A DNA stretch of 53,158 nt from Candidatus Daviesbacteria bacterium (lineage in GTDB: Bacteria; Patescibacteriota; Microgenomatia; Daviesbacterales; UBA10151): assembly GCA_016176405.1 (NCBI GenBank), contig JACOXG010000028.1:1-53158 (forward strand), given 5' to 3'. The position numbers were made by a program, and so were the translations under genes. Numbering within the stretch: the first letter of the stretch is position 1; every line of letters starts with the position of its first letter. Shown here one piece after another: positions 16,774 to 49,777 of the stretch. The notes under the pieces are model-generated. The model made no database searches. It saw only the letters and a program-made list of their open reading frames with translations, and was not told the origin of the DNA.

Positions 16774-17026
16774 GAAGATTCTATTACTGGTTACCTTCCT
16801 TATAATAATAGTAGGAATATGGTGGTTTTTGATGGGACAAGGTGATAAGACAAAGGGTTTGGTTAGTCCCCAACTTCCCAAAATTTTTAATAAATCAACC
16901 CCTATCCCGGAGCCAACAGCAGTTCCGCCAAATGCTCCCAAAACTTTTCAATTTGATGAATCAACTGATTTAGAAGCAGAGTTAGAAAAAATTAATCCTC
17001 AAGTTTTAGATAGTGATTTTGAGTGA
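16766..17026 (+). CDS. Small membrane-anchored Pro-rich hypothetical protein
   Basis: N-terminal TM, PTAVPP linker. Confidence 0.75.
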   Translation: MNKKILLLVTFLIIIVGIWWFLMGQGDKTKGLVSPQLPKIFNKSTPIPEPTAVPPNAPKTFQFDESTDLEAELEKINPQVLDSDFE

Positions 17027-17075
17027 TAAGTATTGACAACTCTTATACAATTACCCCACAGTAATATTTAATAAC

Positions 17076-19190
17076 ATGCAAAATTTAGTTATTGTTGAAT
17101 CACCTACTAAAGCCAGGACTCTCCAAAAGTATTTGGGAGATCAATATCAAATTGAGGCCTCTATGGGGCATGTTCGAGATTTGCCAAAATCTGATTTTGG
17201 GGTGGATGTAGAGCATGATTTTGAGCCGCAATATGTCATTCCCAGAGATAAAAGGAAAATGGTTAATCAGTTAAAAAAGGTGGCAGAATTAGCTAAGAAT
17301 TTGTGGCTTGCTACAGATCCTGATAGAGAAGGAGAGGCAATTGCTTGGCATTTAGGAAAAGTGATAAGTGAAAAGGGAGGGATGGGTCAGGAAATTAAAC
17401 GTGTTATTTTTCATGAAATTACAGAGGATGCAATTAAAGAGGCTTTTAAAAATCCCAGACAAATAAATCTTAAATTGGTTGATGCTCAACAAGCCAGAAG
17501 AGTTTTGGATAGATTGGTGGGTTATAAACTTTCCCCCTTACTATGGCAAAAAGTTAAAAAGGGTTTATCTGCAGGGAGAGTACAATCAGTGGCTTTAAGA
17601 TTAATTGTGGAAAGAGAAAGAGAGATCTCTGCTTTTAAAGCAGTGGAATACTGGGTTATTGAGGCAGAACTTAGCAAACACCTCCGAGGTGAGACTGGAG
17701 TTGCACCTAGTGCGCACCTCGGAGGTGAAGTCAAGGAGGCGTTTATTGCCACTTTGATTGAACAAAATGGTAAAAAACTGGCTATTAAAAATGAGCAAAG
17801 CTCTTACGAAAAAAATCAGAGATTTTTTATTCGTAATAAAGAAGAAGCAGACGGACATGTTGCCAATTTAGCAAAGGCTAGTTATGTTGTGTCCAAAATT
17901 ACTCAAAAAGAAGTCAGAAGATATCCCTACCCTCCTTTTACTACCTCCACCATGCAACAGGGAGCTGCTAATAGATTAGGATTTTCTGCTAAAAAAACTA
18001 TGATGCTGGCACAGGCCTTATATGAAAGGGGACTGATTACTTATATGAGAACAGATTCATTTAATTTGGCCCCCTCAGCCATTGTTTCTGCCAGAAATTA
18101 CATTGGGCAAAAATTTGGTAAAGCCTATTTGCCCTCTGCTCCTAGATTGTATAAATCCAAATCTAAAAATGTGCAGGAAGCTCATGAGGCCATCAGAGTA
18201 ACGGATGTCAAACGTCAGAGTTCAGATATCAGACAACAGGGGGGTTTAAACAGAGATCATGTTAGATTATATGATTTGATTTGGAAGCGCTTTTTGGCTT
18301 GTCAGATGAGTGAGGCAGTTTTGGATCAGACCACAGTGGATGTCCAAGCTCACCTCCGAGGTGAGCCAAAGGTTTCGTCAGGCGCACACCTCGGAGGTGT
18401 AACCTATCTTTTAAGGGCAACTGGCTCTGTAATTAAATTCGAGGGATGGTTGAAATTATATGGCAAGGAAGCAGAAGAAAATGAAGATGAGAAAAAACAA
18501 CTACTCCCATCTCTTTCGGAAAATCAACCACTTAATCTTATTCAACTACTCCCATCTCAGCACTTCACAGAACCGCCTCCCAGATATACAGAAGCAACTT
18601 TGATTAAAAAGCTGGAAGAATTGGGTATTGGTCGGCCTTCCACTTATGCTCCGATTTTATCTACCATTCAAGATAGATTTTATGTGGAAAAACAGGAGAG
18701 AAAATTCGTGCCCACCTCCTTAGGTTTTGCAGTGACAGATTTTGTGGTCAAATATTTTCCTGATATTGTTGATTATTCATTTACTGCTCAGTTAGAAGAT
18801 GAGCTGGATGAAATAGCCAGAGGAGAAAGAGAATGGAGACCAACCATTAGAGAATTTTATACTCCTTTTGAAAAAAAGCTTGAGGAAACTGCTCAAGATG
18901 CTGAGAAAGTAAAAATGGTGGTGGAATATGCGGGGAAGAAATGCCCCGAGTGTGGAAAAGAATTAATAGTAAGAATAGGGAAATTTGGCAAATTCTTAGC
19001 ATGTTCAGGTTTCCCGGATTGTCGCCATACTGAGAGTATTGAAGAAACAATTAATATTAAATGTCCCGAAGATGGTGGAGAAATAGTGGTTAGAAAAACC
19101 AGAAGAGGAAAAACTTTTTATGGCTGTAAAAACTGGCCAGTCTGCAAATTTGCTTCCTGGACCAAACCAAAGGCAAGTAAGCAATCTTGA
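17076..19190 (+). CDS. topA: DNA topoisomerase I
   Basis: VIVESPTK, ATDPDREGE, SAGRVQS, ITYMRTDS and C-terminal Zn ribbons. Confidence 0.98.
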   Translation: MQNLVIVESPTKARTLQKYLGDQYQIEASMGHVRDLPKSDFGVDVEHDFEPQYVIPRDKRKMVNQLKKVAELAKNLWLATDPDREGEAIAWHLGKVISEKGGMGQEIKRVIFHEITEDAIKEAFKNPRQINLKLVDAQQARRVLDRLVGYKLSPLLWQKVKKGLSAGRVQSVALRLIVEREREISAFKAVEYWVIEAELSKHLRGETGVAPSAHLGGEVKEAFIATLIEQNGKKLAIKNEQSSYEKNQRFFIRNKEEADGHVANLAKASYVVSKITQKEVRRYPYPPFTTSTMQQGAANRLGFSAKKTMMLAQALYERGLITYMRTDSFNLAPSAIVSARNYIGQKFGKAYLPSAPRLYKSKSKNVQEAHEAIRVTDVKRQSSDIRQQGGLNRDHVRLYDLIWKRFLACQMSEAVLDQTTVDVQAHLRGEPKVSSGAHLGGVTYLLRATGSVIKFEGWLKLYGKEAEENEDEKKQLLPSLSENQPLNLIQLLPSQHFTEPPPRYTEATLIKKLEELGIGRPSTYAPILSTIQDRFYVEKQERKFVPTSLGFAVTDFVVKYFPDIVDYSFTAQLEDELDEIARGEREWRPTIREFYTPFEKKLEETAQDAEKVKMVVEYAGKKCPECGKELIVRIGKFGKFLACSGFPDCRHTESIEETINIKCPEDGGEIVVRKTRRGKTFYGCKNWPVCKFASWTKPKASKQS
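17679..17727. repeat. 49-bp double-palindrome element, copy 1 (in topA)
   Basis: CACCTCCGAGGTG-N23-CACCTCGGAGGTG. Confidence 0.9.
18351..18399. repeat. 49-bp double-palindrome element, copy 2 (in topA)
   Basis: CACCTCCGAGGTG-N23-CACCTCGGAGGTG. Confidence 0.9.
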
Positions 19191-19335
19191 AAGTCGCTCG
19201 TCACATCAAAAAGCACCGTTCGACTAGAAGTTCTGAATCATTAAATAGATTTTCTAGTCTCACTATGGGAAAGTTTTATGACGAGCATCTGCACATAAAA
19301 GTTTCTAATTGCTTTTATGATTGTGACTTTGCTCC
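19191..19335. repeat. ~145-bp structured intergenic repeat, copy 1
   Basis: Aligns with 23571-23718 and 26424-26570; long closing stem plus two hairpins with compensatory changes. Confidence 0.9.
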
Positions 19336-19358
19336 CTCTGCCACAACCTAATCACTTA

Positions 19359-19387
19359 TTGACTTTCAATAACTGATTTAGTAAGAT
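19359..19387 (+). promoter_or_regulatory. Sigma70-type promoter of pyrG
   Basis: TTGACT-17 bp-TAAGAT. Confidence 0.6.
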
Positions 19388-19436
19388 AATGAGGGCCTCA
19401 AAATACTCCATAATAAGAGCGGAACCCCCAAATAAA

Positions 19437-21047
19437 ATGAAATATATTTTTGTATCTGGTGGTGTGATTAGTGGTATTGGTAAGGGCATAGCAACTGCCT
19501 CAATTGGTTTACTCCTAAAATCTGCAGGATATAAAATCTCTCCTTTAAAAATGGATCCTTATTTAAATGTTGATGCAGGTACCATGAATCCGATTGAACA
19601 TGGAGAAGTGTTTGTGTTAGATGATGGAGTAGAAACAGATCAGGATTTAGGTCATTATGAAAGATTCTTAAATGAAAGTTTAACCCGCGCCAATATTGCC
19701 ACTCAAGGAAGTATTTATCTTTCAGTCATACAGCGGGAAAGAAATTTAGAATATGATGGGGCTTTTGTGGATATTACCCATATTACAGAGGAAATTATCA
19801 GAAGAATTAATGAGGCAGGTAAAAGTCGGAATGCAGATATTGTCCTAATCGAAATTGGTGGAACTGCCGGAGAATATCAAAATGTTTTATTTCTTGAGGC
19901 GAACAGGCTGCTAAAACTTAAAAAACATGATGATGTCATTCATGTTCATATCACCTATTTACCAGTGCCGCCTTCAATTGGGGAAATGAAATCCAAACCA
20001 GCTCAGATGTCTATCAGAGATTTAAATGCTGTAGGAATTCAGCCAGACATAATTTTAGCAAGAGGCGAGAAACCAATTGATGAATTTAGAAAGAAAAAGT
20101 TGGCAATTTCCTCCGGCTTGGAATTAGAAGATATTATTTCTGCTCCAGATGTGAATTCTATTTATAAAGTGCCCATTGGTTTTGAAAATCAAAATTTATC
20201 AGAGAGAATTTTGGGAAAATTAAAATTAAAAAGAAAAGATAAAGATTTAAAAGAGTGGAGAGAGTTTGTTTCCAAAATTGATGCTGCTAAAAAGGTAGTT
20301 AAAATTGGGGTGGTTGGTAAATATTTTACTACAGGTGATTATACTTTGGCAGATTCTTATATTTCTGTCATTGAGGCCATCAAACATGCTGCCTGGACTC
20401 AAGGTTTTATTCCCAAGATTGTATGGCTGGACTCTGCCAAGGTTTTGGATGATGTTAGTTTACTGAAAGGTTTTCAGGGAATTATTGTGCCAGGAGGATT
20501 TGGTTCCAGAGATATTGAGGGAAAAATTTTAACCATTAAATATTGTCGGGAAAATAAAATTCCCTATTTTGGTTTATGCTATGGCATGCAACTGGCTTGT
20601 GTGGAATATGCCAGAAATGTTTTACATTTAACAGGAGCTCATACCACTGAAGTTGATCCCCAAACCAAATATCCGGTCATTCATATTATGCCCTCGCAAC
20701 AAAAGAAAATGTTAAATAGGGAATATGGGGGGACTATGAGGTTGGGGGCTTGGGATTGTGTTTTAAAAAAAGGCACTTTGGCTCATAAGCTATATGGGAA
20801 AGATAAAATTTCCGAAAGACATAGACACAGATTTGAGTTTAATAATCAGTTTCTGAAAAAGTTTTTAGGTGGCGGAATGGTGATATCTGGCACTACCCTG
20901 GATAAACAACTGGTGGAAATAATTGAACTAAAAGATCATCCATTTTTCATTGGTACTCAATTTCATCCAGAATTAAAATCCCGCCCCTTAGATCCTCATC
21001 CATTATATCTAGGTTTTATCAAAGCTGCTTCAGAAATAAAGGCGTGA
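19437..21047 (+). CDS. pyrG: CTP synthase
   Basis: MKYIFVSGGVISGIGKG, DPYLNVDAGTMNP, GLCYGMQ and QFHPE motifs. Confidence 0.98.
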   Translation: MKYIFVSGGVISGIGKGIATASIGLLLKSAGYKISPLKMDPYLNVDAGTMNPIEHGEVFVLDDGVETDQDLGHYERFLNESLTRANIATQGSIYLSVIQRERNLEYDGAFVDITHITEEIIRRINEAGKSRNADIVLIEIGGTAGEYQNVLFLEANRLLKLKKHDDVIHVHITYLPVPPSIGEMKSKPAQMSIRDLNAVGIQPDIILARGEKPIDEFRKKKLAISSGLELEDIISAPDVNSIYKVPIGFENQNLSERILGKLKLKRKDKDLKEWREFVSKIDAAKKVVKIGVVGKYFTTGDYTLADSYISVIEAIKHAAWTQGFIPKIVWLDSAKVLDDVSLLKGFQGIIVPGGFGSRDIEGKILTIKYCRENKIPYFGLCYGMQLACVEYARNVLHLTGAHTTEVDPQTKYPVIHIMPSQQKKMLNREYGGTMRLGAWDCVLKKGTLAHKLYGKDKISERHRHRFEFNNQFLKKFLGGGMVISGTTLDKQLVEIIELKDHPFFIGTQFHPELKSRPLDPHPLYLGFIKAASEIKA

Positions 21048-21090
21048 TATACTCACTTGAAATATTTCTCCTATAAGTTAAAGTCAAGTT

Positions 21091-21609
21091 ATGAAAAAGA
21101 AAAATAAGATAGTTTATGCCTTTATTGATAGTCAGAATTTAAACCTTGGAGTACTTTCGCAAGGTTGGCAACTTGATTGGCGTAAATTTAGACAGTATCT
21201 ACGCAATAAATATAACGCTACTGATACCTATCTTTTTATAGGTTACAAACCCGGTAATGAAGCATTGTATGCTAACCTACAGCAAATGGGCTATCTGGTA
21301 ATTCTTAAGCCCACGATGGAGTTACCGGATAAATCGGTAAAGGGTAATGTTGATGCAGAGTTAGTGTTGCATACCATGATTCAATATAAAAATTATGATA
21401 AAGCAATTATTGTTTCAGGCGACGGAGATTTTTTCTGCCTTGTGGAGTATCTTGAAAGTAAAAATAAGCTACTTCATATTTTGGCACCAAATAGAAGGTA
21501 CTCAAAACTTTTTAGCAAATATTCACGCTTGGTTATAAGAGTAGATCAATTGAGGGGTAGTTTAGAATTCAAAAAGAAAACTGGCATCGGCGGTCGGTCG
21601 AAACCTTAG
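21091..21609 (+). CDS. NYN-domain (LabA/DUF88-like, PIN-fold) putative ribonuclease
   Basis: AFIDSQNL, KGNVDAEL and IIVSGDGDF acidic motifs. Confidence 0.9.
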   Translation: MKKKNKIVYAFIDSQNLNLGVLSQGWQLDWRKFRQYLRNKYNATDTYLFIGYKPGNEALYANLQQMGYLVILKPTMELPDKSVKGNVDAELVLHTMIQYKNYDKAIIVSGDGDFFCLVEYLESKNKLLHILAPNRRYSKLFSKYSRLVIRVDQLRGSLEFKKKTGIGGRSKP

Positions 21610-21642
21610 GCCTATCCAGTCATCGTGATACATTTTATTATA
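21571..21642 (-). ncRNA. Candidate ~60-nt antisense small RNA (span includes its -10 box) overlapping the 3' end of the NYN gene
   Basis: Minus-strand TTGCTT-16-TATAAT with TGn extension, then a GC-rich hairpin (ACTGG...CCAGT, inner GGT-TTCG-ACC) and a TTTTCTTTTT tract. Confidence 0.5.
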
Positions 21643-21649
21643 GCACAAT

Positions 21650-22284
21650 ATGGATAAAAAGCAAGGTTTATTAATTGTTATTGATGGTTAAAAAAATATT
21701 TAAAAGAAAAAGATATTAAATTTGAAATAATTAGTTTTCCTCAGTATGGTAAAAATAGTTTTGCTAAAAAAGTTGAAGATTATTTAAAAGGAGAGTTTGG
21801 CAAATTAGATGAAGCAGATCCATATGTGATTGCAAAATTTTACGCTGGAGATAGATTAACTGCTAAGAATTTAATAAATAAATGGTTGCATCAAGGAAAA
21901 CTGGTGATAGCCAACAGATATGTATCATCCTCTAAGGCTCATCTTGGGGCTAACCTGCCCGAAAATAAAAGAGAAAAATTTTTTAAATGGCTGAATCAAT
22001 TGGAATATCAAAAAAATAATCTCCCCAAAGAAGATTTAACTATTCTTTTAATAGTTGATCCGAAAGTGGGCCAGAGAAATGTGATGGAGAAACACCATCT
22101 TGATCTTCATGAAAATGATTTAAATCATTTAAACAATGCCAATAAAATTTATTTAGATCTTTCTAAAAAAGAAAAAAATTGGGAGGTAATAAATTGTATG
22201 AATAAAGGAAAAATGAAATCTAAAGAAGATATTCAAAAGGATATCGTAAAAATACTACTTGAAAAAAAGCTGCCTGCAGAATAA
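21650..22284 (+). pseudogene. tmk: Thymidylate kinase, frameshifted with the P-loop deleted (possibly assembly artefact)
   Basis: MDKKQGLLIVIDG* then out-of-frame ISFPQYG...YAGDR...ANRYVSS; the GSGKxTQ segment is absent. Confidence 0.8.
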
Positions 22285-22298
22285 AGTATTCTAGTTTT

Positions 22299-22979
22299 AT
22301 GACAAAAAGAAATAACAAGATTCCTCGCTACGCTCGGAATGACATGGGGGGTGAAGATATTGTAGGCACCCTTCCTGATTGGGTCATTAAAGAATATATC
22401 AAAAAAGGCATTATAAAAATAAGTCCCTTACCTAAAAATTGGGAAGATAATGTGGATGGGGTGACTATTGATTTTCATTTGGGCAATAAACTGAGAGTTT
22501 TTACTGGGGATGGCTGGGATATTATTGATACCAAACACACTACCAAAGAAGAAATGGAATCGATGATGAAACTGATATTCTTAAAACCTGGCCAACCTTT
22601 TGTTTTATCTGATAAGGATTTTGTGATAGCCACCACCCAAGAAAAATTAACTTTACCAGATAATATTGTAGGACATCTTCATGGAAAATCTTCTTTGGCC
22701 AGACTGGGGATTGCAGTTCACTCAACTGCTGCCAGATTTGACCCGGGTTGGGATGGACATCCGGTTTTAGAATTTGGGACCTTTTTAAAAGGGAAAAGAG
22801 TGGTAATTTATGAGGGTTCCCCCATTTGTGCTTTTTCTTTTGAAAAATTAGCAGCATCAGTTAAAAGGCCTTATCATAAGAGCCCCCAAAATAGGTATGG
22901 AGGCTCTGATTTACCTGAGGTTTCTAATATAATGGGGAGGAAACCGGCTCGTCGCAGTACAAAGCACCGTTCAACTTAA
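22299..22979 (+). CDS. dcd: dCTP deaminase
   Basis: GKSSLARLG, DPGWDGHPVLE and PICAFSF motifs. Confidence 0.9.
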   Translation: MTKRNNKIPRYARNDMGGEDIVGTLPDWVIKEYIKKGIIKISPLPKNWEDNVDGVTIDFHLGNKLRVFTGDGWDIIDTKHTTKEEMESMMKLIFLKPGQPFVLSDKDFVIATTQEKLTLPDNIVGHLHGKSSLARLGIAVHSTAARFDPGWDGHPVLEFGTFLKGKRVVIYEGSPICAFSFEKLAASVKRPYHKSPQNRYGGSDLPEVSNIMGRKPARRSTKHRST

Positions 22980-22984
22980 TTTTT

Positions 22985-23092
22985 AGATGTGAGAAGTTGG
23001 ATGTGTGAAGATAGATAATGATGTGAGAAGTGAGACTATTCACACATCACATTTCAATAATCCATATTCACATTTCGCACTTCCCATTTCAA
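22985..23092. repeat. Intergenic converging 7-bp-period arrays
   Basis: gatgtgagaagttggatgtgtga...gatgtgagaagtgaga followed by inverted cacacatcacatttc...tcacatttcgcacttcccatttc. Confidence 0.75.
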
Positions 23093-23098
23093 AAGTAT

Positions 23099-23570
23099 AT
23101 GTCAGTATTTAAGACTGGGGTCAGTTTATAAAATTGTTAGTGGTGGGGCTTTTATAGAAGGGGATAACGAAAAGGGTTTAGGGAAAAGAAAAGGTGTTAA
23201 AACAGAAATTTTGGCAAAGTTTAAAAAGGGAAAAAGGAAACAGGAATGGGCTACTATAAAACCAGGAGATTATTATCTTGTATCAACTTTAGAAATTATC
23301 AATACCCCAAAAGATCTGATGCCACTTATTTTTCCTCGGACCTCACTATTTAGGGCCGGTCTCTTACTGTTGAATTCAAAAACTGATCCTGGATATAAAG
23401 GTCCTTTAGCAATGGGACTAAAAAATTTGTCAGAATTTGATGTAAAGTTACAAATTGGTGCCAGAATTTGTAACATTGTTTTTTATAAAATTGAAGGGCA
23501 AACAACTCTCTATCGAGGGCAACATCAAGGTGGTAGAATAAGTCCTCATGAAGAAGAACAACAGGTTTAG
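23099..23570 (+). pseudogene. Second dCTP deaminase/dUTPase-family gene with N-terminal deletion/frameshift
   Basis: PRTSLFRAG, DPGYKG and YRGQHQGG motifs; ATG at 23099 is out of frame with LRLGSVYKI. Confidence 0.7.
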
Positions 23571-23718
23571 AAGCCGGCTCGTCTGGTCAAAAAGCACCGT
23601 TCGACTACTATATCTGAAACATTTAGTTTATTCTCTAGTCTCACTATGGGAAAGTTTTGTGACGAGTAGCTGCACACAAAACTTTCTAATTGCTTTTATG
23701 ACTCAGACTTCGCCGCCT
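23571..23718. repeat. ~145-bp structured intergenic repeat, copy 2
   Basis: Nearly identical to copy 3 outside one variable hairpin. Confidence 0.92.
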
Positions 23719-23735
23719 ATTAATAACGTTAAGAA

Positions 23736-24731
23736 ATGAGAAAGCAAAAACATCCTGAATACCAATATTTAGATTTATTAAAAGACATCATGAAAAATGG
23801 TGTAGACAAACCTGTTTTTAATAATCCAGGAGTAACTATAAAATCTGTTTTTGGTAGACAAATTCGATTTGATTTAAAAAAAGGTTTTCCACTTTTAACC
23901 ACCAAAAAAGTTTTTTTAAGGGGAATTATTCATGAATTACTTTGGTTTTTAAAAGGAGATTCTAATATTAAATATTTAATTGATCAAGACGTTCACATCT
24001 GGGATGAATGGGCATATAAGCGCTTCAAAGAAGCGCAAAATTTAAAATTTAAAATTTCAAATTTAAAATTGAAAGGATATTTTAAAACAATAAAAACTCA
24101 AGAACAATTTATTGCAAAAATAAAAGAACTTCCAGCTCATGATAAGTTTGTTAGAGAATGGGGGGATTTGGGAAATGTTTATGGAGTACAATGGAGAAAA
24201 TGGAAAACATCAGATGGAAGAGTAATTGATCAGATGGCCTGGGCCATTGAAAAATTAAGAAAAACTCCTTTAAGAAAACATATTATTATTTCTGCTTGGA
24301 ATCCTGAATTTATTTATGAGATGGCACTCCCTGGAAAATCCATGGCTCTTCCTCCTTGTCACACTTTATTTCAGCTAAATGTCAATGATAAAAATGAATT
24401 ATCACTTCATCTGTTCCAGAGGAGCTCTGATCTTTTTTTGGGTGTGCCATTTAATATTGCCTCCTATGCATTATTAACAATGATGATTGCTCAAGTAACT
24501 AATTTAAAAGTTGGGGAATATGTACATACTTTTGGCGATGTGCATATATATAGTAATCATATGGATCAGGTAAAAGAGCAATTAAAAAGAAAACCAAGGT
24601 CATTTCCTAAAATGAAATTAAATCCTAAAGTTAAAAATATTGATGAGTTTAAATTAGAGGATTTTGAGCTAACAGGTTATAATCCTTATCCTCCTATTAA
24701 AGCTCAAGTTACTGTAGTAGGAGGATTTTAA
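23736..24731 (+). CDS. thyA: Thymidylate synthase
   Basis: FPLLTTKK, ELLWFLKG, ALPPCH and QRSSDLFLGVPFN motifs. Confidence 0.98.
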   Translation: MRKQKHPEYQYLDLLKDIMKNGVDKPVFNNPGVTIKSVFGRQIRFDLKKGFPLLTTKKVFLRGIIHELLWFLKGDSNIKYLIDQDVHIWDEWAYKRFKEAQNLKFKISNLKLKGYFKTIKTQEQFIAKIKELPAHDKFVREWGDLGNVYGVQWRKWKTSDGRVIDQMAWAIEKLRKTPLRKHIIISAWNPEFIYEMALPGKSMALPPCHTLFQLNVNDKNELSLHLFQRSSDLFLGVPFNIASYALLTMMIAQVTNLKVGEYVHTFGDVHIYSNHMDQVKEQLKRKPRSFPKMKLNPKVKNIDEFKLEDFELTGYNPYPPIKAQVTVVGGF

Positions 24732-25225
24732 TGAGTAAAATTAATATTGTGGTCGCAGCTGCTGGAAAAAAAAGAGTCATTGGTCAAAAAGGAAAACTGC
24801 CTTGGTATATCCCAAATGAGCTAAAAAGATTTAAAGAAATTACCATGGGACACCCAATAATTATGGGCAGAAAAACTCATGAATCCATTGGTAGAGTTTT
24901 ACCTGGAAGGACAAACATTGTGATAACTTCTCAAGAAAATTATTCAGCCCCGGGATGTAAAGTTGCTCACAATTTAGATGAAGCCCTTCGACTCGCTACG
25001 CTCGCTCAGGGCAATGACGAAATATTCGTCATTGGTGGAGGGCAAATTTATGAACAAGCAATGCAAGTTACCAATAAATTATATTTAACATATGTGGATA
25101 AAGAAATAGAAGGAGATACCTTTTTCCCAGATTATTCAGAGTTTAAAAAAGTAGTTTCTGAATCAAACTGGCAACATGATAAAGATTTAAGATACAAATT
25201 CTTAGAGCTGGAAAGATATAGATGA
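24731..25225 (+). CDS. folA: Dihydrofolate reductase
   Basis: LPWYIP, IMGRKT, LPGRTNIV, VIGGGQIY and GDTFFP motifs. Confidence 0.97.
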   Translation: MSKINIVVAAAGKKRVIGQKGKLPWYIPNELKRFKEITMGHPIIMGRKTHESIGRVLPGRTNIVITSQENYSAPGCKVAHNLDEALRLATLAQGNDEIFVIGGGQIYEQAMQVTNKLYLTYVDKEIEGDTFFPDYSEFKKVVSESNWQHDKDLRYKFLELERYR

Positions 25226-25238
25226 GAAGTCCGAAAAT

Positions 25239-25448
25239 TTAACCATGTGGAATTTTTAATTCCCGCTCTCCTCCTGTTAGAGGATTATATTCAATCGGTC
25301 TTCTCTCACCATTCTTTATGTTGAAATATCGTATTGTGGGATCCGCCGCAATAGTTATAGGTTCACCACGTTCTCCTTTTAAATTACCCCCAGGGTATGT
25401 TCTACCAACAATAATTTTGCCTTTTTCTACTCCAGTCTCACAAATCAT
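25239..25448 (-). CDS. Small hypothetical protein
   Basis: 69-aa ORF filling the gap between folA and the rpsB promoter. Confidence 0.45.
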   Translation of the reverse strand: MICETGVEKGKIIVGRTYPGGNLKGERGEPITIAADPTIRYFNIKNGERRPIEYNPLTGGERELKIPHG

Positions 25449-25482
25449 TGAGTATAGTGTATCATGTTATGTCAACTGTGAC

Positions 25483-25583
25483 TTGATTTAAGGTGGGTAC
25501 GTTGTTAAAATATGCTCCATTACACATCTATCAGCTTAAGTTTTCCTGAAACTATATTGCTGATAGAGAGGAACAAGGAAAAC
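25483..25583 (+). promoter_or_regulatory. rpsB promoter and structured 5' leader
   Basis: TTGATT-17-TAAAAT; stem TCTATCAGC/GCTGATAGA; internal GTTTTCCT complementary to AGGAAAAC before the ATG. Confidence 0.65.
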
Positions 25584-26423
25584 ATGATTAAGCTCCCAAC
25601 ATTGGAAGAGTTATTAGAAGCAGGTGTTCATTTTGGACATCAGGTGCGTCGTGGCCACCCCAGGATGAAACCATATATTTATGGAGCCAGAGACGGAGTT
25701 CATATTATTGATTTAACCCAATCTGAAAAACTTTTAAAAGAGGCCGGTGAGTTTGTTTATAATTTGGGAATGATGGGCAAGGTATTACTTTTTGTGGGTA
25801 CCAAAAAACAAGCCAGACCAATTGTGGAGGGGGCTTCTAAAAATTTAGAAGCACCATACTTGGTGGAAAGATGGATTGGCGGGTTTTTGACCAATTTTGA
25901 AGAGGTCCAAAAAAATATCAAAAAATTAAAAGAGTTAAGAGATCAAAAGACAAAGGGAGAACTTAAAAAATATACAAAAAAAGAACAACTGCTGCTTGAT
26001 AGAAAAATTGCCAAAATGGATAAAGATTTTGTGGGGGTTTTGAATTTGGAAAATCTACCTGATGCTGTTTTTGTCAGTGATGCTGTGACAGAAAATATTG
26101 CTGTCAGAGAGGCCAACAGAATGGGGATACCTGTGGTGGCTATTGCAGATTCTAATTGTAATCCCACTGAGATTGATTACCCAATTGCTGGTAACGATGA
26201 TGCCATCAAATCTATTAAAATATTAGTAGAAGCTGTGGCCAATGCTTATGGGGAGGGTAAAAAAGAAGCTGGGAAGGCATTAGCCAGAGCAGCTAAAAAG
26301 GCGGAGAAAGAAGCTGCCAAAGGAGAGGAAGAAGTGCCGGAAGTATTAAAGGAGGAGGTGGCAGCAGCGGAGGAGATGGTGGAAAAAAAGGCTATTAAGG
26401 ATGCAGAAAGAGTGGTGGAATAG
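25584..26423 (+). CDS. rpsB: 30S ribosomal protein S2
   Basis: LLEAGVHFGH, FVGTKKQA and PIAGNDDAIKS motifs; start MIKLP. Confidence 0.98.
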   Translation: MIKLPTLEELLEAGVHFGHQVRRGHPRMKPYIYGARDGVHIIDLTQSEKLLKEAGEFVYNLGMMGKVLLFVGTKKQARPIVEGASKNLEAPYLVERWIGGFLTNFEEVQKNIKKLKELRDQKTKGELKKYTKKEQLLLDRKIAKMDKDFVGVLNLENLPDAVFVSDAVTENIAVREANRMGIPVVAIADSNCNPTEIDYPIAGNDDAIKSIKILVEAVANAYGEGKKEAGKALARAAKKAEKEAAKGEEEVPEVLKEEVAAAEEMVEKKAIKDAERVVE

Positions 26424-26570
26424 AGCCAGCTCGTCTGGTCAAAAAGCACCGCTCGACTAGTAATACCGAATCATTAAGGGTATTTTCTAGTCTCACTATG
26501 GGAAAATTTTGTGACGAGTAGCTGCACACAAAACTTTCTAATTGCTTTTATGACTCAGACTTCGCTGTCT
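26424..26570. repeat. ~145-bp structured intergenic repeat, copy 3
   Basis: Between rpsB and tsf; aligns with copies 1 and 2. Confidence 0.92.
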
Positions 26571-26578
26571 TTGAATAT

Positions 26579-27031
26579 ATGAATATAAAAGACATTAAAA
26601 AACTTAGAGAACAGACTGGGGTTGGGATTGCCGACTGCAAGGAGGCCCTGAGCTTGTCGAAGGGCAATCTAGAAAAAGCTAAAGAGTGGTTAAAGAAAAA
26701 GGGTTTGGATAAGGCTGCTAAAAAAGCTGATAGAGAAGTAAGAGCTGGGGTGGTTGATGTTTATTCTCATAATGGTAAAGTGGGAGTATTGGTTGAAGTC
26801 TTATGTGAGACAGATTTTGTGGCGAGAACTGAAGATTTTAAAAATTTGGCACATGAGTTATCTTTACAAATTGCTTCCATGAATCCTTCTTCAGCGGAAG
26901 AGTTACTCTCTCAAGAATATATAAGGGATGCCACCCAAACAGTGGATCAACTAATCAAGGGTGTTTCTGGCAAATTAGGAGAAAATATCCAAGTTGGCAG
27001 ATTTGAAAGAATTGTACTAGGAGAGGGTTAA
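26579..27031 (+). CDS. tsf: Elongation factor Ts, short form
   Basis: IKKLREQTG, CETDFVAR and GENIQVGRF motifs. Confidence 0.95.
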   Translation: MNIKDIKKLREQTGVGIADCKEALSLSKGNLEKAKEWLKKKGLDKAAKKADREVRAGVVDVYSHNGKVGVLVEVLCETDFVARTEDFKNLAHELSLQIASMNPSSAEELLSQEYIRDATQTVDQLIKGVSGKLGENIQVGRFERIVLGEG

Positions 27032-46924: not shown

Positions 46925-49777
46925 ATGATACAAATTATTAGAGTTAAAAATGTAGGTAAAGATTTATTGGGAGAGGGAATTCTTCATGATATCCATAATA
47001 CTTTGGGTAACAGAAATGTTACAAAAGTTGAATCTGCCAAAGTTTATAGATTAGAAGGTGTTTTTGAGGAGGAAGCCAAAATAATGGCAGAAACTGTTTT
47101 TTGTGAAAGTATTTATCAGACATATACATTGAATGAATCAATTCTAGGAATACACCTCCGAGGTGTGAGCAAGACGACTGCCAAGGCTCACCTCGGAGGT
47201 GAACAATTAGTGGTTTTAGAGGTTGCATATAAACCTGGGGTGATGAATCCTGAGGTGGGGTCAATTCTTAAGACCGCAGCTGACTTAAAAATTAAATTGA
47301 TTGCTGCTGATTCATCACACGAGTATGGTTTTTGGGGAGAAGTGACTACCAAAGAGGTGGAAGAAATTGCCAGAAAACTACATCTTCTAAATGAGATGAT
47401 TGAGTATTTTGTAAGAGAGGAACCAAAGACACTGATTATTAAGGAAGCTCCTGGAAAAACTAAAATCATCTGGCTACGTGGAATGAATGATAAACAATTA
47501 ATGAATCTTTCCCAAGGTAAACTTTTCCTTAATTTAGAAGAAATGAAAGTTATTCAAAGATATTTTCAAAAAATAAAAAGGGATTCGACTGATTTGGAAC
47601 TGGAGACTTTGGCTCAAACTTGGAGTGAACATTGTGCCCATAAAATTTTTAAAGCCAAAATAATTTTAGATGGCAAAGAAAAAGAACCCTTATTTACAAG
47701 ATTAAAAAAGGAAGCTTTAAAACATAATAAAAATATTGTTTCAGCATTTGTGGATAATGCAGGAGCAATGGATTTTTATGAAGGTTGGGCTATTAATGGA
47801 AAAGCAGAAACACACAATGCCCCCTCCGCTATAGAACCATATGGTGGAGCTATGACTGGCTCTGGTGGAGTTTTTAGGGATGTAGTAGCCACAGGCCAGG
47901 GTGCCAAAGCAGTTGTATCAACAGATATATTTTGTCTGGCTCCACCTGATATGGATAAGAGCCAACTGCCCGAGGGAACATTACCTCCTGACTATATGTT
48001 AAAAAGGGTAGTGGCTGCTGTTAGGGATTATGGCAATAGAGTGGGAATTCCCACTAACAATGGGTCATTTCATTTTCATGAAGATTTTCGGGCCAAACCA
48101 ATTGTTTTGGTTGGGGCTTATGGAATTTTGCCTAAAGAAAAAGCTAAAAAGGGATCTCCCAAAATTGGAGATATAGGGGTGGTGATTGGGGGAAGAACCG
48201 GGAGGGATGGAATTCATGGGGCTACATTTTCTTCTGGAATAATGTCAGAAAAAACAGCTACTATAAATGCTACAGCAGTGCAGATTGGGAATGCTATTGA
48301 AGAAAAAAGAATTTTTGATGCCATACTTGAGGCCCGAGATAAAAATTTAATCAGGGCTGTCCAAGATTTGGGAGCTGGAGGATTTTCATCTGCCATTGGT
48401 GAGATGGGAGTAGAAACTGGAGTTAAAGTTCATTTAGAAAAAGCACCACTTAAGTATCAAGGTTTGGCTCCCTGGGAAATTTTCCTAGCAGAATCTCAAG
48501 AGAGAATGTTAGTTGTTCTTTCTAAAAAGAATCTGAAAAAGTTTTTGAAAATTTGTCAAAAATATAATGTGGAAGCAACTAGTTTAGCAGAGTTTGATGG
48601 AAGCAGGAAATTACAAGTTTATTTTGAAAAGCAAAAAATTGGGGATTTAGAAATGAGTTTTCTCCATGGAGGATTACCCCAGAGAGTAATGAAAGCAACT
48701 CATGTCAAGGTCGCACCTTCGTCAAGGTCGCACCTCAACAAGATGCCGGGGACGGAAAAGGCGTGGGTTAATACTCTAAAGAGGGTCTTGGCAGATGGAA
48801 ATATAAATTCTAAAGAACCAATACTTCGAATGTATGATCATAATGTACAAGGGACAAATGCCTTGCATCCTTTTGCAGGTGAAGGGATGGATGGGCCAAA
48901 TGATGCAGTTGTTGTAAAGCCTTTACTTGATAAGCCCTACGGTATGGTGGTGGCCCATGGACTAAACCCAGAGTTCACAATGGTAGATCCATATTGGGGC
49001 AGTATTTGGGCAGCCACTGAAGCAATTTCAAATTATGTAGCAGTAGGAGGAGATTACAAAGAAGCCTGCTTAATAAATAATTACATTTGGCCATTCCCTG
49101 ATGAAGAGTGGTTGGGGAAATTAGATAGATGTGTGGATGCAGTTTGTGATTTTATGAAGGCTTTAAAGATTCCTGTAATTTCTGGAAAAGATAGTTTATC
49201 AGCAACTTACCGTGGGTCTAATGGAGTAGTAATACATAGCCCGCCTACACTTTGCATATCAGTTTTTGGAAAAATTCCTGATGTTACAAAAACAGTTTCT
49301 TCTGATTTTAAGAAAATTGGGTCAACAATTGTACTTGTTGGTCAAACAGCTCACCCCCGGGGTGAAGCTAAGGATTCACCAAGATCACACCCCGGGGGTG
49401 TGCCTAGAGTTGATTTACAACTGTTGCCAAAAGTCTTGGATAAAATTCATCAAGCAATTATAAGTGGAAAAGTTTTAGCTTGTCATGATGTTTCAGAAGG
49501 AGGTTTAATAACCTCAATTTTTGAAATGTGTGTGGGCGGGAATTGTGGAGCAACTTTGAAAGTTGATGGGAACCAAATACTTAATGAAACAGCTGGATGT
49601 TTTATTATAGAGATGGAAAATGAGGTGATTGCCAAAACTTTATTCAAAGGGATTCCATTTCAGATATTGGGAAAAACTACTGAAGAGGAAAAAATAAAAG
49701 TAGATGGATTAGTTACAGTAGATGTAAAGGAGCTTAAAGAAACATGGCAAAAACCAATGAAGGAGATATTTCCATGA
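46925..49777 (+). CDS. purL: FGAM synthase subunit PurL with N-terminal PurS-like region
   Basis: QTWSEHC, ETHNAPSAIEP, DLGAGG, ESQERM, SGKDS and HDVSEGG motifs. Confidence 0.95.
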   Translation: MIQIIRVKNVGKDLLGEGILHDIHNTLGNRNVTKVESAKVYRLEGVFEEEAKIMAETVFCESIYQTYTLNESILGIHLRGVSKTTAKAHLGGEQLVVLEVAYKPGVMNPEVGSILKTAADLKIKLIAADSSHEYGFWGEVTTKEVEEIARKLHLLNEMIEYFVREEPKTLIIKEAPGKTKIIWLRGMNDKQLMNLSQGKLFLNLEEMKVIQRYFQKIKRDSTDLELETLAQTWSEHCAHKIFKAKIILDGKEKEPLFTRLKKEALKHNKNIVSAFVDNAGAMDFYEGWAINGKAETHNAPSAIEPYGGAMTGSGGVFRDVVATGQGAKAVVSTDIFCLAPPDMDKSQLPEGTLPPDYMLKRVVAAVRDYGNRVGIPTNNGSFHFHEDFRAKPIVLVGAYGILPKEKAKKGSPKIGDIGVVIGGRTGRDGIHGATFSSGIMSEKTATINATAVQIGNAIEEKRIFDAILEARDKNLIRAVQDLGAGGFSSAIGEMGVETGVKVHLEKAPLKYQGLAPWEIFLAESQERMLVVLSKKNLKKFLKICQKYNVEATSLAEFDGSRKLQVYFEKQKIGDLEMSFLHGGLPQRVMKATHVKVAPSSRSHLNKMPGTEKAWVNTLKRVLADGNINSKEPILRMYDHNVQGTNALHPFAGEGMDGPNDAVVVKPLLDKPYGMVVAHGLNPEFTMVDPYWGSIWAATEAISNYVAVGGDYKEACLINNYIWPFPDEEWLGKLDRCVDAVCDFMKALKIPVISGKDSLSATYRGSNGVVIHSPPTLCISVFGKIPDVTKTVSSDFKKIGSTIVLVGQTAHPRGEAKDSPRSHPGGVPRVDLQLLPKVLDKIHQAIISGKVLACHDVSEGGLITSIFEMCVGGNCGATLKVDGNQILNETAGCFIIEMENEVIAKTLFKGIPFQILGKTTEEEKIKVDGLVTVDVKELKETWQKPMKEIFP
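47153..47201. repeat. 49-bp double-palindrome element, copy 3 (in purL)
   Basis: CACCTCCGAGGTG-N23-CACCTCGGAGGTG. Confidence 0.9.
48704..48736. repeat. Tandem pair of AAGGT-CGC-ACCT mini-hairpins in purL
   Basis: GTCAAGGTCGCACCTTC GTCAAGGTCGCACCTC, 17-bp period. Confidence 0.75.
49352..49400. repeat. 49-bp double-palindrome element, copy 4 (variant, in purL)
   Basis: CACCCCCGGGGTG-N23-CACCCCGGGGGTG. Confidence 0.9.

What the first reader, a model, noticed from the sequence alone, without database searches (positions are those of the whole stretch)
19191..26570. ~145-nt three-way-junction element with covariation, placed exactly after stop codons
Three co-oriented copies start at the first base after the stops of topA, the second dcd and rpsB. 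The closing stem GTCTG-GTCA-AAAAGCA/TGCTTTT-a-TGAC-t-CAGAC becomes GTCAC-ATCA/TGAT-t-GTGAC in copy 1, and the outer CGGC/GCCG becomes CAGC/GCTG in copy 3. Hairpin 2 TTTTGTG/CACAAAA becomes TTTTATG/CATAAAA, while hairpin 1 GACTA...TAGTC has a variable interior. Junction strands (CCGTTC, TCACTATGG) are near-invariant. The 5' CTCGTC is complementary to GACGAG at the hairpin 2 loop (8 bp in copy 1), a possible pseudoknot or alternative fold. On the minus strand the internal loops read GAA/GA and AGTGA/GAAC, suited to G-A pairs. I do not recognise it as a known family; it is a candidate new structured RNA or ssDNA mobile element targeting gene ends.
Basis: seen in the sequence. Interest (0 to 1): 0.85.

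Follow-up and report, generated by a model that had tools for sequence, protein, structure and literature searches.

The report
Structured 150-nt mobile repeat in Daviesbacteria
A 150-base repeat that folds into a three-armed hairpin sits just behind the stop codons of housekeeping genes in one family of tiny groundwater bacteria; it behaves like a small jumping element, yet between same-direction genes it always lies in the direction in which they are read, so it probably matters as RNA too.

Summary
Three co-oriented ~150-nt copies lie in the window at 19190-19339, 23571-23720 and 26423-26572. Each abuts the stop codon of topA, dcd2 or rpsB. A fourth, hybrid copy lies at 22946-23095.

- **Spread:** the genome holds 8 copies. 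A covariance model finds the family in 35 of 96 genomes of the same family (Ca. Daviesbacteria by record titles) and in 0 of 40 genomes of other families.
- **Known families:** Rfam, phage and viral searches gave nothing.
- **Fold:** the three-way junction is strongly supported. 42 of 45 pairs show double changes and 92% of cells are paired. The proposed pseudoknot is not conserved.
- **Mobility:** it is a DNA-level insertion. Orthologous rpsB-tsf junctions are mostly overlapping stop/start codons. One species carries the element in frame inside topA where 11 congeners have 20-68 nt. Copies also lie inside rplA.
- **Variants:** a second family shares the same conserved base but has another interior.
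- **Orientation:** between co-directional genes it is sense in 46 of 46 cases. Replication bias cannot explain this.

Best reading: a new RPE/MITE-like structured repeat whose sense RNA fold is under constraint. The mobilising enzyme and the RNA role are unknown.

The parts
19190..19339 (+). Copy 1 (subfamily B: GTCAC/GTGAC closing stem), between topA and pyrG
   Evidence: R1 164 bits. topA by Pfam. CTP synthase lies downstream.
19188..19190 (+). TGA stop of topA; its last base is the first base of copy 1
   Evidence: The ORF 17076-19190 ends here.
23571..23720 (+). Copy 2 (subfamily A), between dcd2 and thyA (thyA start at 23736)
   Evidence: R1 173 bits. Pfam DCD and Thymidylat_synt. The TAG stop is at 23568-23570.
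23571..23578 (+). Copy 2, 5' strand of the variable outer stem; pairs with 23712-23719
   Evidence: Fold. Helix 1 has 7 of 8 pairs with double changes.
23579..23596 (+). Copy 2, conserved base: TC loop plus the 5' strand of the 16-bp closing stem. It pairs with 23691-23708; the opposite TTC loop is at 23709-23711.
   Evidence: The same GCTCGTCAC...GTGACTTCGC base occurs in family 2.
23599..23644 (+). Copy 2, hairpin 1 with a 2-bp covarying extension, a TC/TC loop and a variable interior
   Evidence: helix 5: 8 of 8 pairs with double changes.
23649..23687 (+). Copy 2, hairpin 2 (13 bp)
   Evidence: helix 6: 13 of 13 pairs with double changes.
26423..26572 (+). Copy 3 (subfamily A), between rpsB (TAG at 26421-26423) and tsf (ATG at 26579)
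   Evidence: R1 172 bits. Pfam Ribosomal_S2 and EF_TS. The spacer is 155 nt here against -8 to +17 nt in 20 of 27 relatives.
22946..23095 (+). Fourth, hybrid or decayed copy at the dcd1-dcd2 junction. It joins the family-1 5' arm to a family-2 interior and has no 3' base motif. The dcd1 ORF ends inside it (TAA at 22977-22979).
   Evidence: Sequence. Alignment with family 2. ORF 22299-22979.

Best explanation
This is a lineage-specific family of non-autonomous palindromic repeats, comparable to MITEs and to Rickettsia palindromic elements. It occurs in Candidatus Daviesbacteria (CPR, Microgenomates).

Shown:
- It is inserted into DNA at places that tolerate 150 extra bases. These are mainly the junction between a stop codon and the next start codon in compact operons. 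Now and then it lands in frame in disordered loops or linkers of proteins.
- Copies are gained and lost between related species.
- Nearly every copy keeps a three-way-junction fold through compensatory changes.
- A conserved base module is shared with a second family that has a different interior. The module is a variable outer stem, a G-C/C-G clamp, a TC/TTC internal loop, and a GTCAC/GTGAC stem.
- Copies lying between genes that run the same way are always sense to those genes.

Inferred:
- The conserved base is the part recognised by the still unknown machinery that copies the element. The fold is needed in a single-stranded intermediate.
- The sense-only orientation follows transcription rather than replication. 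So either only sense copies survive because of what the fold does in the mRNA, or insertion itself is coupled to transcription.
- In the mRNA, the stable structure begins at the stop codon. Its base helix pairs the region next to the upstream stop with the region just before the next start. This could insulate or couple translation, or protect the 3' end.
For: Multiplicity and range:
- 8 copies in the 0.95-Mb genome.
- Hits in 35 of 96 genomes and 23 of 63 genera of the family, and in 0 of 40 genomes of other families.
- Relatives are titled Ca. Daviesbacteria.

Fold:
- 92.4% of 2880 cells are paired, against 71.5% in shuffles and 37-46% when partners are slid.
- 42 of 45 pairs have double changes, and 0 of 500 shuffles reach any of the five measures.
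- Between nearest-neighbour copies, 308 pairs differ. Of these, 171 are double and compensated, 55 are single and still paired, and 82 are broken.

Insertion and absence:
- The rpsB-tsf spacer is 155 nt here. It is -8 to +17 nt in 20 of 27 relatives with a callable spacer.
- It is 20 nt or less in 51 of 73 callable metagenome loci. 4 of the 80 loci scanned carry the element in that spacer, and one locus (L136) keeps only its last ~25 nt.
- In one genus, G051 carries the element in frame inside topA (50 codons, no stop). 11 congeners have 20-68 nt there. G127, whose flanks are 92-93% identical, has an unrelated ~125-nt palindromic insert.
- Copies lie in frame, antisense, in the N-terminal linker of L1 in two genera.

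Family structure:
- Copies group mostly by genome or subfamily rather than by locus.
- A second family (6 copies) plus one hybrid shares the base motif.
- A 49-nt mini-copy with the interior deleted lies at C18:9123-9171.
- At ogt-tpiA, this genome's family-2 copy and G019's family-1 copy share the same outer stem, AGTCTGGC/GCCATCCTT.

Orientation and position:
- 46 copies lie between two sense genes and 0 between two antisense genes.
- At most 75% of long ORFs in this genome lie on the majority strand of their contig. An orientation tied to replication would therefore give 0 of 46 with P of about 2e-6 (0.75^46, my arithmetic).
- In 38 of 68 copies a sense ORF of 100 codons or more stops -15 to +4 nt from the element start. 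In 10 more it runs 13-55 nt into the element.
Against: - No target-site duplication and no conserved flanking motif were found.
- No autonomous partner or transposase carries the same ends. All 20 RAYT-like Y1 genes examined are flanked by other short palindromes.
- No two copies in any genome are more than 94% identical, so recent bursts are not seen.
- Copies at the same locus in different genera are 76-84% identical in 6 of 7 pairs, while four-fold sites of the flanking genes are 26-57% identical. This fits selection on resident copies at least as well as repeated insertion from conserved masters.
- The strand that folds is not settled. G-U (110) exceeds A-C (40), but much of the excess comes from a terminal pair and from bulge placement.
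- All internal loops are TC/TC or TC/TTC on the + strand, which reads GA/GA or GAA/GA on the - strand. The - strand is the more stable one in 50 of 65 copies.
- No RNA data exist for this organism in the runs served.
Confidence: 0.55

Rival explanations
1. It is a resident, host-beneficial cis-acting RNA module of operons. The 3' or intercistronic structure would act in translation insulation or coupling, in RNase processing, or in mRNA stabilisation. On this view it has been duplicated to several loci and is kept by purifying selection. Mobility would be only its origin.
For: - Sense orientation in 46 of 46 co-directional contexts, not explained by replication bias.
- The element starts at the stop codon in most copies.
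- Near-perfect helices in almost every copy; helices 2-4 are 98-100% paired.
- 76-84% identity at the same loci across genera, where four-fold sites are near saturation.
- No near-identical copies in any genome.
- The internal loops are conserved and are never 'corrected' to perfect palindromes.
- Stable structures just after stop codons are reported to govern re-initiation in bacteria (PMC7518266, abstract only).
Against: - Only 35 of 96 family genomes have it, and most orthologous junctions lack it.
- It also lies inside coding sequence, in both orientations.
- It was gained in topA within one genus.
- Some copies in G056 lie upstream of promoter-like sequences in divergent regions.
- There is no common function among the flanking genes beyond housekeeping.
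- A T-run of 4 or more follows only 23 of 68 copies, so it is not a general terminator.
Confidence: 0.25
2. It is a single-stranded-DNA transposon of the IS200/IS605 or REPIN kind. One of the RAYT-like Y1 (HUH) enzymes that are abundant in these genomes would mobilise it in trans, recognising the conserved base hairpin.
For: - No target duplication.
- A fold conserved as if needed in a single strand.
- Y1_Tnp ORFs occur in 50 of 61 relatives, with 4 in this genome.
- Each such ORF has REP-like flanks, so hairpin-recognising HUH systems are present.
- A CGTC tetranucleotide sits at the foot of the 5' arm, as in the 'CGTC-tagged' REPs for which no dedicated transposase is known (PMC3733652, passages).
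Against: - None of the 20 Y1 genes examined is flanked by the element's base motif.
- Y1 presence (32 of 36 family genomes) does not track element presence (35 of 96).
- No conserved tetranucleotide lies 5' of the insertions.
- Orientation follows the genes, not the replication strand expected for IS200/IS605.
- The two hairpins are unlike each other, unlike the LE and RE hairpins of IS608 (recalled).
Confidence: 0.15
3. It is a trans-acting small RNA or a self-cleaving ribozyme gene family.
For: It has a three-way junction with conserved nucleotides and strong covariation.
Against: - There is no room for its own promoter or terminator, because the copies fill the stop-to-start gaps.
- The junction strands vary between copies. 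The conserved positions are the internal loops in the stems, not a catalytic-core-like junction.
- No Rfam ribozyme or sRNA family matches.
- In-frame copies are translated.
Confidence: 0.03

Closest known systems
Rickettsia palindromic elements (RPE)
   Same: - A 100-150-nt palindromic repeat in a small genome.
- Found between genes and, in frame, inside essential genes, where it is read as a peptide in a tolerant loop.
- No known transposase.
- A CGTC tetranucleotide at one end is reported for R. conorii RPEs (PMC3733652, passages) and is also present here in GCTCGTC.
   Different: - Another phylum; sequence likeness to RPEs was not tested because no RPE sequence was at hand.
- A three-way junction rather than a simple hairpin.
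- Sense-only orientation between genes.
- Most copies (63 of 68) are intergenic.
REP / REPIN elements with RAYT transposases
   Same: - Dispersed palindromic repeats that keep their hairpin by compensatory change, mostly at gene ends.
- RAYT-like genes with REP-like flanks exist in the same genomes.
   Different: - 150 nt with two internal hairpins, against 20-40 nt (REP) or about 100-nt doublets (REPIN).
- Not found flanking any of the 20 RAYT-like genes examined.
- No clusters of identical copies.
MITEs such as Correia (Neisseria), ERIC, BOX, RUP
   Same: - Non-autonomous and 100-200 nt, with complementary ends.
- Co-transcribed with neighbouring genes.
- Presence/absence differences between relatives.
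   Different: - No target-site duplication and no parent insertion sequence with the same ends.
- The outermost stem varies from copy to copy yet stays complementary.
Ribosome termination structure (RTS) and phage T7 intercistronic RNase III sites
   Same: - A stable mRNA structure placed directly after stop codons or between cistrons.
- RTS: PMC7518266, abstract only. T7 sites: recalled.
   Different: - Those are not a repeated, sequence-conserved family that spreads to new loci.
- No effect on translation or processing has been shown here.

Membership tests
Any Rfam 15 family | Score at or above the family's gathering threshold | tested here: not met
   0 matches in the whole window at gathering thresholds. 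In E-value mode only miRNA or snoRNA models scored, far below threshold, on copy 2 and on family 2, the mini-copy and divergent copies.
MITE | Terminal inverted repeats | tested here: met
   The 5' and 3' ends pair over 8 + 16 bp. However, the outermost 8 bp differ between copies.
MITE | Target-site duplication flanking the copies | tested here: not met
   No direct repeat was seen at the flanks of the 68 copies listed, nor at the recent topA insertion.
MITE | A parent insertion sequence with the same ends | tested here: not met
   In this genome the two end motifs occur only about 130 nt apart or alone, at about the count expected by chance (expectation by my arithmetic). The assembly is 94% complete, so a partner could be missing.
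MITE / mobile repeat in general | Occupied and empty orthologous sites among relatives | tested here: met
   rpsB-tsf junction. topA loop within one genus.
REP/REPIN-RAYT | Repeats flank the cognate RAYT gene | tested here: not met
   4 RAYT-like genes of this genome and 16 of five other element-bearing genomes are flanked by other short palindromes.
REP/REPIN-RAYT | Short (20-40 nt) hairpin with a GTAG or CGTC tag at its foot | tested here: inconclusive
   CGTC lies within the conserved GCTCGTC motif, but GTC is base-paired and the element is 150 nt long. The definition is taken from PMC3733652 (passages).
IS200/IS605-type element (PATE) | Insertion 3' of a fixed tetra- or pentanucleotide, with orientation tied to the replication strand | tested here: not met
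   The flanks are variable. Orientation follows the genes 46:0, while 25% or more of long ORFs lie on the minority strand of their contig.
Rickettsia palindromic elements | Palindromic repeat found in frame inside protein-coding genes | tested here: met
   Sense in G051 topA. Antisense in the L1 linker of G057 and G018. This shows it behaves like an RPE. Homology to RPEs was not tested.
Integron attC site | R''/R' core sites (RYYYAAC ... GTTRRRY; recalled) in cassette arrays | tested here: not met
   The ends read GCTCGTC ... GACTTCGC. The copies are dispersed in housekeeping operons.
Intrinsic terminator | Stem directly followed by a T-run | tested here: not met
   A T-run of 4 or more occurs in 23 of 68 copies, and the T fraction is 0.36. 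The consensus scan reported no terminator-like site at any copy.
Ribosome termination structure | Stable structure immediately downstream of the stop codon | tested here: met
   Stop-codon positions and fold energies. The functional part of the definition, an effect on re-initiation, cannot be tested with these tools.

The most novel reading that the evidence does not exclude
The element is a self-spreading operon module that works in the sense mRNA. Its base helix ties the stop-codon region of the upstream gene to the region just before the next start, so a 150-nt insertion into a formerly overlapping stop/start junction (ATGA) still allows coupled or deliberately insulated translation. Alternatively, or in addition, insertion is coupled to transcription: the element enters the exposed non-template strand just behind the stop codon, where ribosomes leave the transcript. 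That would explain both the 46:0 sense orientation and the position at stop codons.
Probability: 0.2. Interest if true: 0.8.

Novelty: new variant of a known kind. Interest (0 to 1): 0.6.

Why it matters
CPR bacteria have very small, densely packed genomes and are usually thought to be poor in repeats. My literature searches found no description of dispersed structured repeats in them.

This family is conserved across at least 23 genera and has an unusually well-supported fold. It enters essential operons and even essential proteins. It also obeys a strict orientation rule that points to a role, or at least a strong constraint, at the RNA level.

It offers a tractable case for three questions:
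- How translational coupling survives insertions.
- How palindromic elements are mobilised without a recognisable transposase.
- How proteins of streamlined genomes acquire new loops.

The covariance model can also be used to annotate these genomes and to avoid miscalled ORFs at gene ends.

Tried and rejected
Pseudoknot (CTCGTC with the GACGAG loop of hairpin 2): rejected, because it is not conserved.

Intrinsic terminator: rejected as a general role.

Insertion into a pre-existing hairpin, with the outer stem as the old target: no empty GCTC-TTCGC hairpins were found in this genome. Outer stems are no more alike at the same locus than within a genome (mean identity 0.42 against 0.48). One locus (ogt-tpiA) does share its outer stem between genera and between families.

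Spliced intron: disfavoured. All 5 copies that lie in reading frames are open, which is unlikely by chance; I estimate about 0.04 per copy.

Strand tests: the G-U against A-C count and the plus-against-minus folding energies point in opposite directions and were not decisive.

Autonomous partner:
- Split halves of the element were not found.
- RAYT-like genes are not flanked by the element.
- An 11-mer shared between family 2 and the flank of one RAYT-like gene occurs 7 times in the genome, so I judged it not informative.

Phage or viral carriage:
- No blastn match in 50,697 phage records.
- The end-motif pattern hit 119 or more viral stretches. 0 of the 80 loci returned matched the covariance model, so these are chance matches.

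Expression: the look-up of sequencing runs listed 4 DNA holders from one study and no RNA holder.

Read laying on those contigs (min_likeness 90):
- It showed joins from 19171 to 19376 with 27 other letters in 2 runs, and from 23505 to 23747 in 3 runs. These may be relatives lacking copies 1 and 2.
- Such joins are unreliable at this setting, so I give them no weight.

A more sensitive model built from the 68-copy alignment could not be made. Counts of genomes with the element are therefore lower bounds.

Supplementary files of papers were not consulted.

Full report
**What is there.** The repeat finder reports one 154-nt family with three co-oriented copies in the window, at 78%, 100% and 89% identity. 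They align without gaps over about 150 nt. The upstream ORFs end at 19190, 23570 and 26423. By Pfam these ORFs are topoisomerase I, a dCTP-deaminase-like protein and ribosomal protein S2. The downstream genes are CTP synthase, thymidylate synthase and EF-Ts. Each copy therefore starts at, or one base into, a stop codon and fills most or all of the gap to the next start codon. Single-sequence folds give a long irregular hairpin that opens into two hairpins. The energies lie 3.6-4.5 standard deviations below shuffles on either strand.

**Extent.** BLAST and a covariance model (R1) built from seven copies find 8 copies in the 0.95-Mb genome, plus a 49-nt mini-copy that keeps only the base and closing stem. 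R1 finds the family in 22 of 101 relatives. All 22 belong to the window's own family (21 of 60 other genomes there), and none of 40 genomes from other families has it. In the whole family it is in 35 of 96 genomes and 23 of 63 genera, with 1-9 copies each. These are lower bounds, because an exact-pattern search found copies in G031, G003 and G051 that R1's filters missed. Record titles of the closest EF-Ts relatives name Candidatus Daviesbacteria, of the Microgenomates group. Rfam 15 gives nothing at gathering thresholds and only sub-threshold miRNA-like noise otherwise. Phage records and viral contigs gave nothing real.

**The fold is real.** On 68 distinct copies from 22 genomes aligned to R1:
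- 92.4% of 2880 cells form standard pairs. Column shuffles give 71.5%, and sliding the 3' partners gives 37-46%.
- 42 of 45 pairs show changes on both sides. None of 500 shuffles reaches any of the five measures.
- The closing helices are 98-100% paired, although their sequences change freely.
- The alignment was fitted to the model, which favours the structure. The slid controls and the many pair types per column (for example CG 29, GC 21, GU 6, UA 6, AU 3 at one pair) make an artefact unlikely.
- Between nearest-neighbour copies, 308 pairs differ. Of these, 171 are compensated double changes, 55 are single changes that keep pairing, and 82 are broken.

The proposed pseudoknot is not conserved. 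8 of 67 copies have 5 nt or more of complementarity, against a shuffled mean of 4.3.

The most conserved part is the base. It consists of a variable but complementary outer stem, GC, an internal loop TC opposite TTC, and then GTCAC/GTGAC. A second TC/TC loop sits in hairpin 1.

**It is inserted DNA.**
1. The rpsB-tsf junction is 155 nt here. It is -8 to +17 nt, often an overlapping ATGA, in 20 of 27 relatives with a callable spacer. It is 20 nt or less in 51 of 73 callable metagenome loci. 4 of the 80 metagenome loci scanned carry the element in that spacer, 2 carry it just after tsf, and one keeps only the element's last ~25 nt.
2. In G051 the element lies in frame inside topA, as 50 codons with no stop. 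Within that genus, 11 other species have only 20-68 nt at this surface loop. G127, whose flanks are 92-93% identical to G051, has a different ~125-nt palindromic insert there. That topA copy was therefore gained after the two species split.
3. In G057 and G018 a diverged, G+C-richer copy lies in frame, antisense, in the variable N-terminal linker of ribosomal protein L1. Ten other family members have other linker sequences there. Similar antisense copies lie in open frames ahead of nusG and rplL.
4. Copies group mainly by genome or subfamily, not by locus.
5. This genome has a second family of 6 copies. It has the same base and about 12 nt (5') and 25 nt (3') of shared ends, but an unrelated interior. 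The window also holds a hybrid of the two families at 22946-23095. At ogt-tpiA this genome's family-2 copy and G019's family-1 copy have the same outer stem, so interiors can be exchanged at a site.

**What argues that the copies are not mere junk.**
- No genome has two copies more than 94% alike, and the best pair between genera reaches 87%.
- Copies at the same locus in different genera are 76-84% identical in 6 of 7 pairs. Four-fold degenerate sites of the flanking genes are only 26-57% identical.
- The internal loops are never 'corrected' to perfect palindromes.

Either resident copies are under purifying selection, or they are replaced often from conserved master copies at a small set of tolerated sites. 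The topA loop has been hit by three different palindromic families in three genomes, which shows that site re-use does happen.

**Orientation and position.** I classified the 68 copies with a simple ORF rule:

| Context of the copy | Copies |
|---|---|
| Between two genes on the element's strand | 46 |
| Between two genes on the opposite strand | 0 |
| Convergent genes | 3 |
| Divergent genes | 2 |
| One or both neighbours unknown | 12 |
| Inside an ORF, antisense | 4 |
| Inside an ORF, sense | 1 |

In this genome at most 75% of 736 long ORFs lie on the majority strand of their contig. An orientation tied to the replication fork, as in IS200/IS605, would therefore leave about a quarter of copies antisense. 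The chance of 0 of 46 is about 2e-6 (my arithmetic, using this genome as a proxy for the rest). Orientation thus follows transcription.

In 38 of 68 copies a sense ORF of 100 codons or more stops between -15 and +4 of the element's first base. In 10 more the ORF runs 13-55 nt into the element and ends at a stop in hairpin 1. A sense ORF of 80 codons or more starts within -27 to +61 nt of the 3' end in 47 of 68 copies (my count).

The flanking genes are housekeeping: dcd-dcd-thyA, rpsB-tsf, two subunits of a succinyl-CoA-ligase-like enzyme, topA-pyrG, polA, ogt-tpiA, ruvX-yceG, ftsZ and recO. From their N-terminal sequences alone (recalled, not tested by Pfam) I also read secA, uvrB and glyS.

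**Which strand folds is open.** G-U pairs outnumber A-C mismatches 110 to 40 on the + strand. However, 28 of the G-U pairs are one terminal pair and about 16 come from bulge placement. Without these and the outer stem the ratio is 46 to 32 (my arithmetic). Non-pairs are mostly pyrimidine-pyrimidine on the + strand (157 against 23 purine-purine). So on the - strand the loops read as tandem G-A, and the - strand is the more stable one in 50 of 65 copies.

**Mechanism.** No target duplication or fixed flanking motif was seen. No split copy flanks a gene. RAYT-like Y1 genes are common, occurring in 50 of 61 relatives. But all 20 examined are flanked by their own short palindromes, not by this element. 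The element is not a general terminator.

I therefore read it as a non-autonomous palindromic repeat of the RPE/MITE kind whose mobilising enzyme is unknown. I infer that the conserved base is the recognised part. I also infer that the sense-only rule reflects either selection on what the fold does in the mRNA or transcription-coupled insertion. In the mRNA the stable structure begins at the stop codon, and its base helix pairs the stop region with the region before the next start. Stable structures placed right after stop codons are reported to control re-initiation (PMC7518266, abstract only). None of this was or could be tested here, since no RNA run holds the organism.

**Novelty.** Searches of the paper library for CPR, Patescibacteria, Daviesbacteria or Microgenomates together with structured RNA, palindromic, MITE, REP, RAYT or transposable element returned nothing on such repeats. 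The closest described things are RPEs and the GTAG/CGTC-tagged REPs (PMC3733652, passages read). The kind of element is known. The three-way-junction architecture, the strict sense orientation and the host lineage are new.

Noticed in passing
window 17679-17727, 18351-18399 (both in topA), 47153-47201, 49352-49400 (FGAM-synthase-like ORF); 20 copies genome-wide: A 49-nt hairpin family (a 13-nt palindromic arm, 23 nt, then the arm again) lies inside long ORFs in all 20 copies. It is in frame and reads as HLRGE-x8-9-HLGGV, or as HTSEV...HTSEV in the other reading. The same arm motif flanks one RAYT-like gene on both sides (C5:57873 and C5:58609). This looks like a REP/RAYT system whose REP doublets sit in frame inside essential genes.
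   Followed up: partly
G000 C1:2877-3016, C1:6409-6547, C19:14717-14851(-), C19:15499-15639(-), C9:~21690-21840, C19:~17000-17139(-): A second ~145-nt element family has the same base motif as the finding but a different, purine-rich/pyrimidine-rich long-hairpin interior. One copy (C1:2877) is antisense to its neighbouring genes. There is no Rfam match.
   Followed up: partly
G000 C17:53003-53677, C20:10882-11592(-), C5 (match 58135-58368, -), C28:10881-11555; also 16 genes in G019, G031, G049, G051, G056: ORFs of 215-260 aa with a partial Y1_Tnp (IS200/RAYT-like) domain. Each is bracketed by its own short palindromes. They occur in 50 of 61 relatives at 1-13 copies.
   Followed up: partly
L432 (G127 topA loop); rpsB-tsf spacers of L120, L146, L157: A third palindromic element family has ends GTCATCC...GGAATGAC. 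It sits in frame in the topA loop of G127 and in rpsB-tsf spacers of metagenome relatives. Other unrelated palindromic inserts fill that spacer in L121, L129, L144 and L175.
   Followed up: no
G000 C5:30349, C12:9682, C17:24136, C30:44379: Four copies of a perfect 20-nt palindrome (GCTCGCTTCG/CGAAGCGAGC), flanked by G/A-rich sequence.
   Followed up: no
L294-L305 (rplA of 12 relatives); G000 C23:44-664: Ribosomal protein L1 of this family carries an N-terminal extension: MGKTKTKIIDDS, then a variable 60-90-aa K/E/S-rich linker. In G000 the gene is cut by the contig start just where other genomes have the linker.
   Followed up: partly
window 23548-23739: A 63-codon ORF spans copy 2. Such ORFs, and the C-terminal extensions of upstream genes that run into the element, are likely to be miscalled by gene finders.
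   Followed up: no
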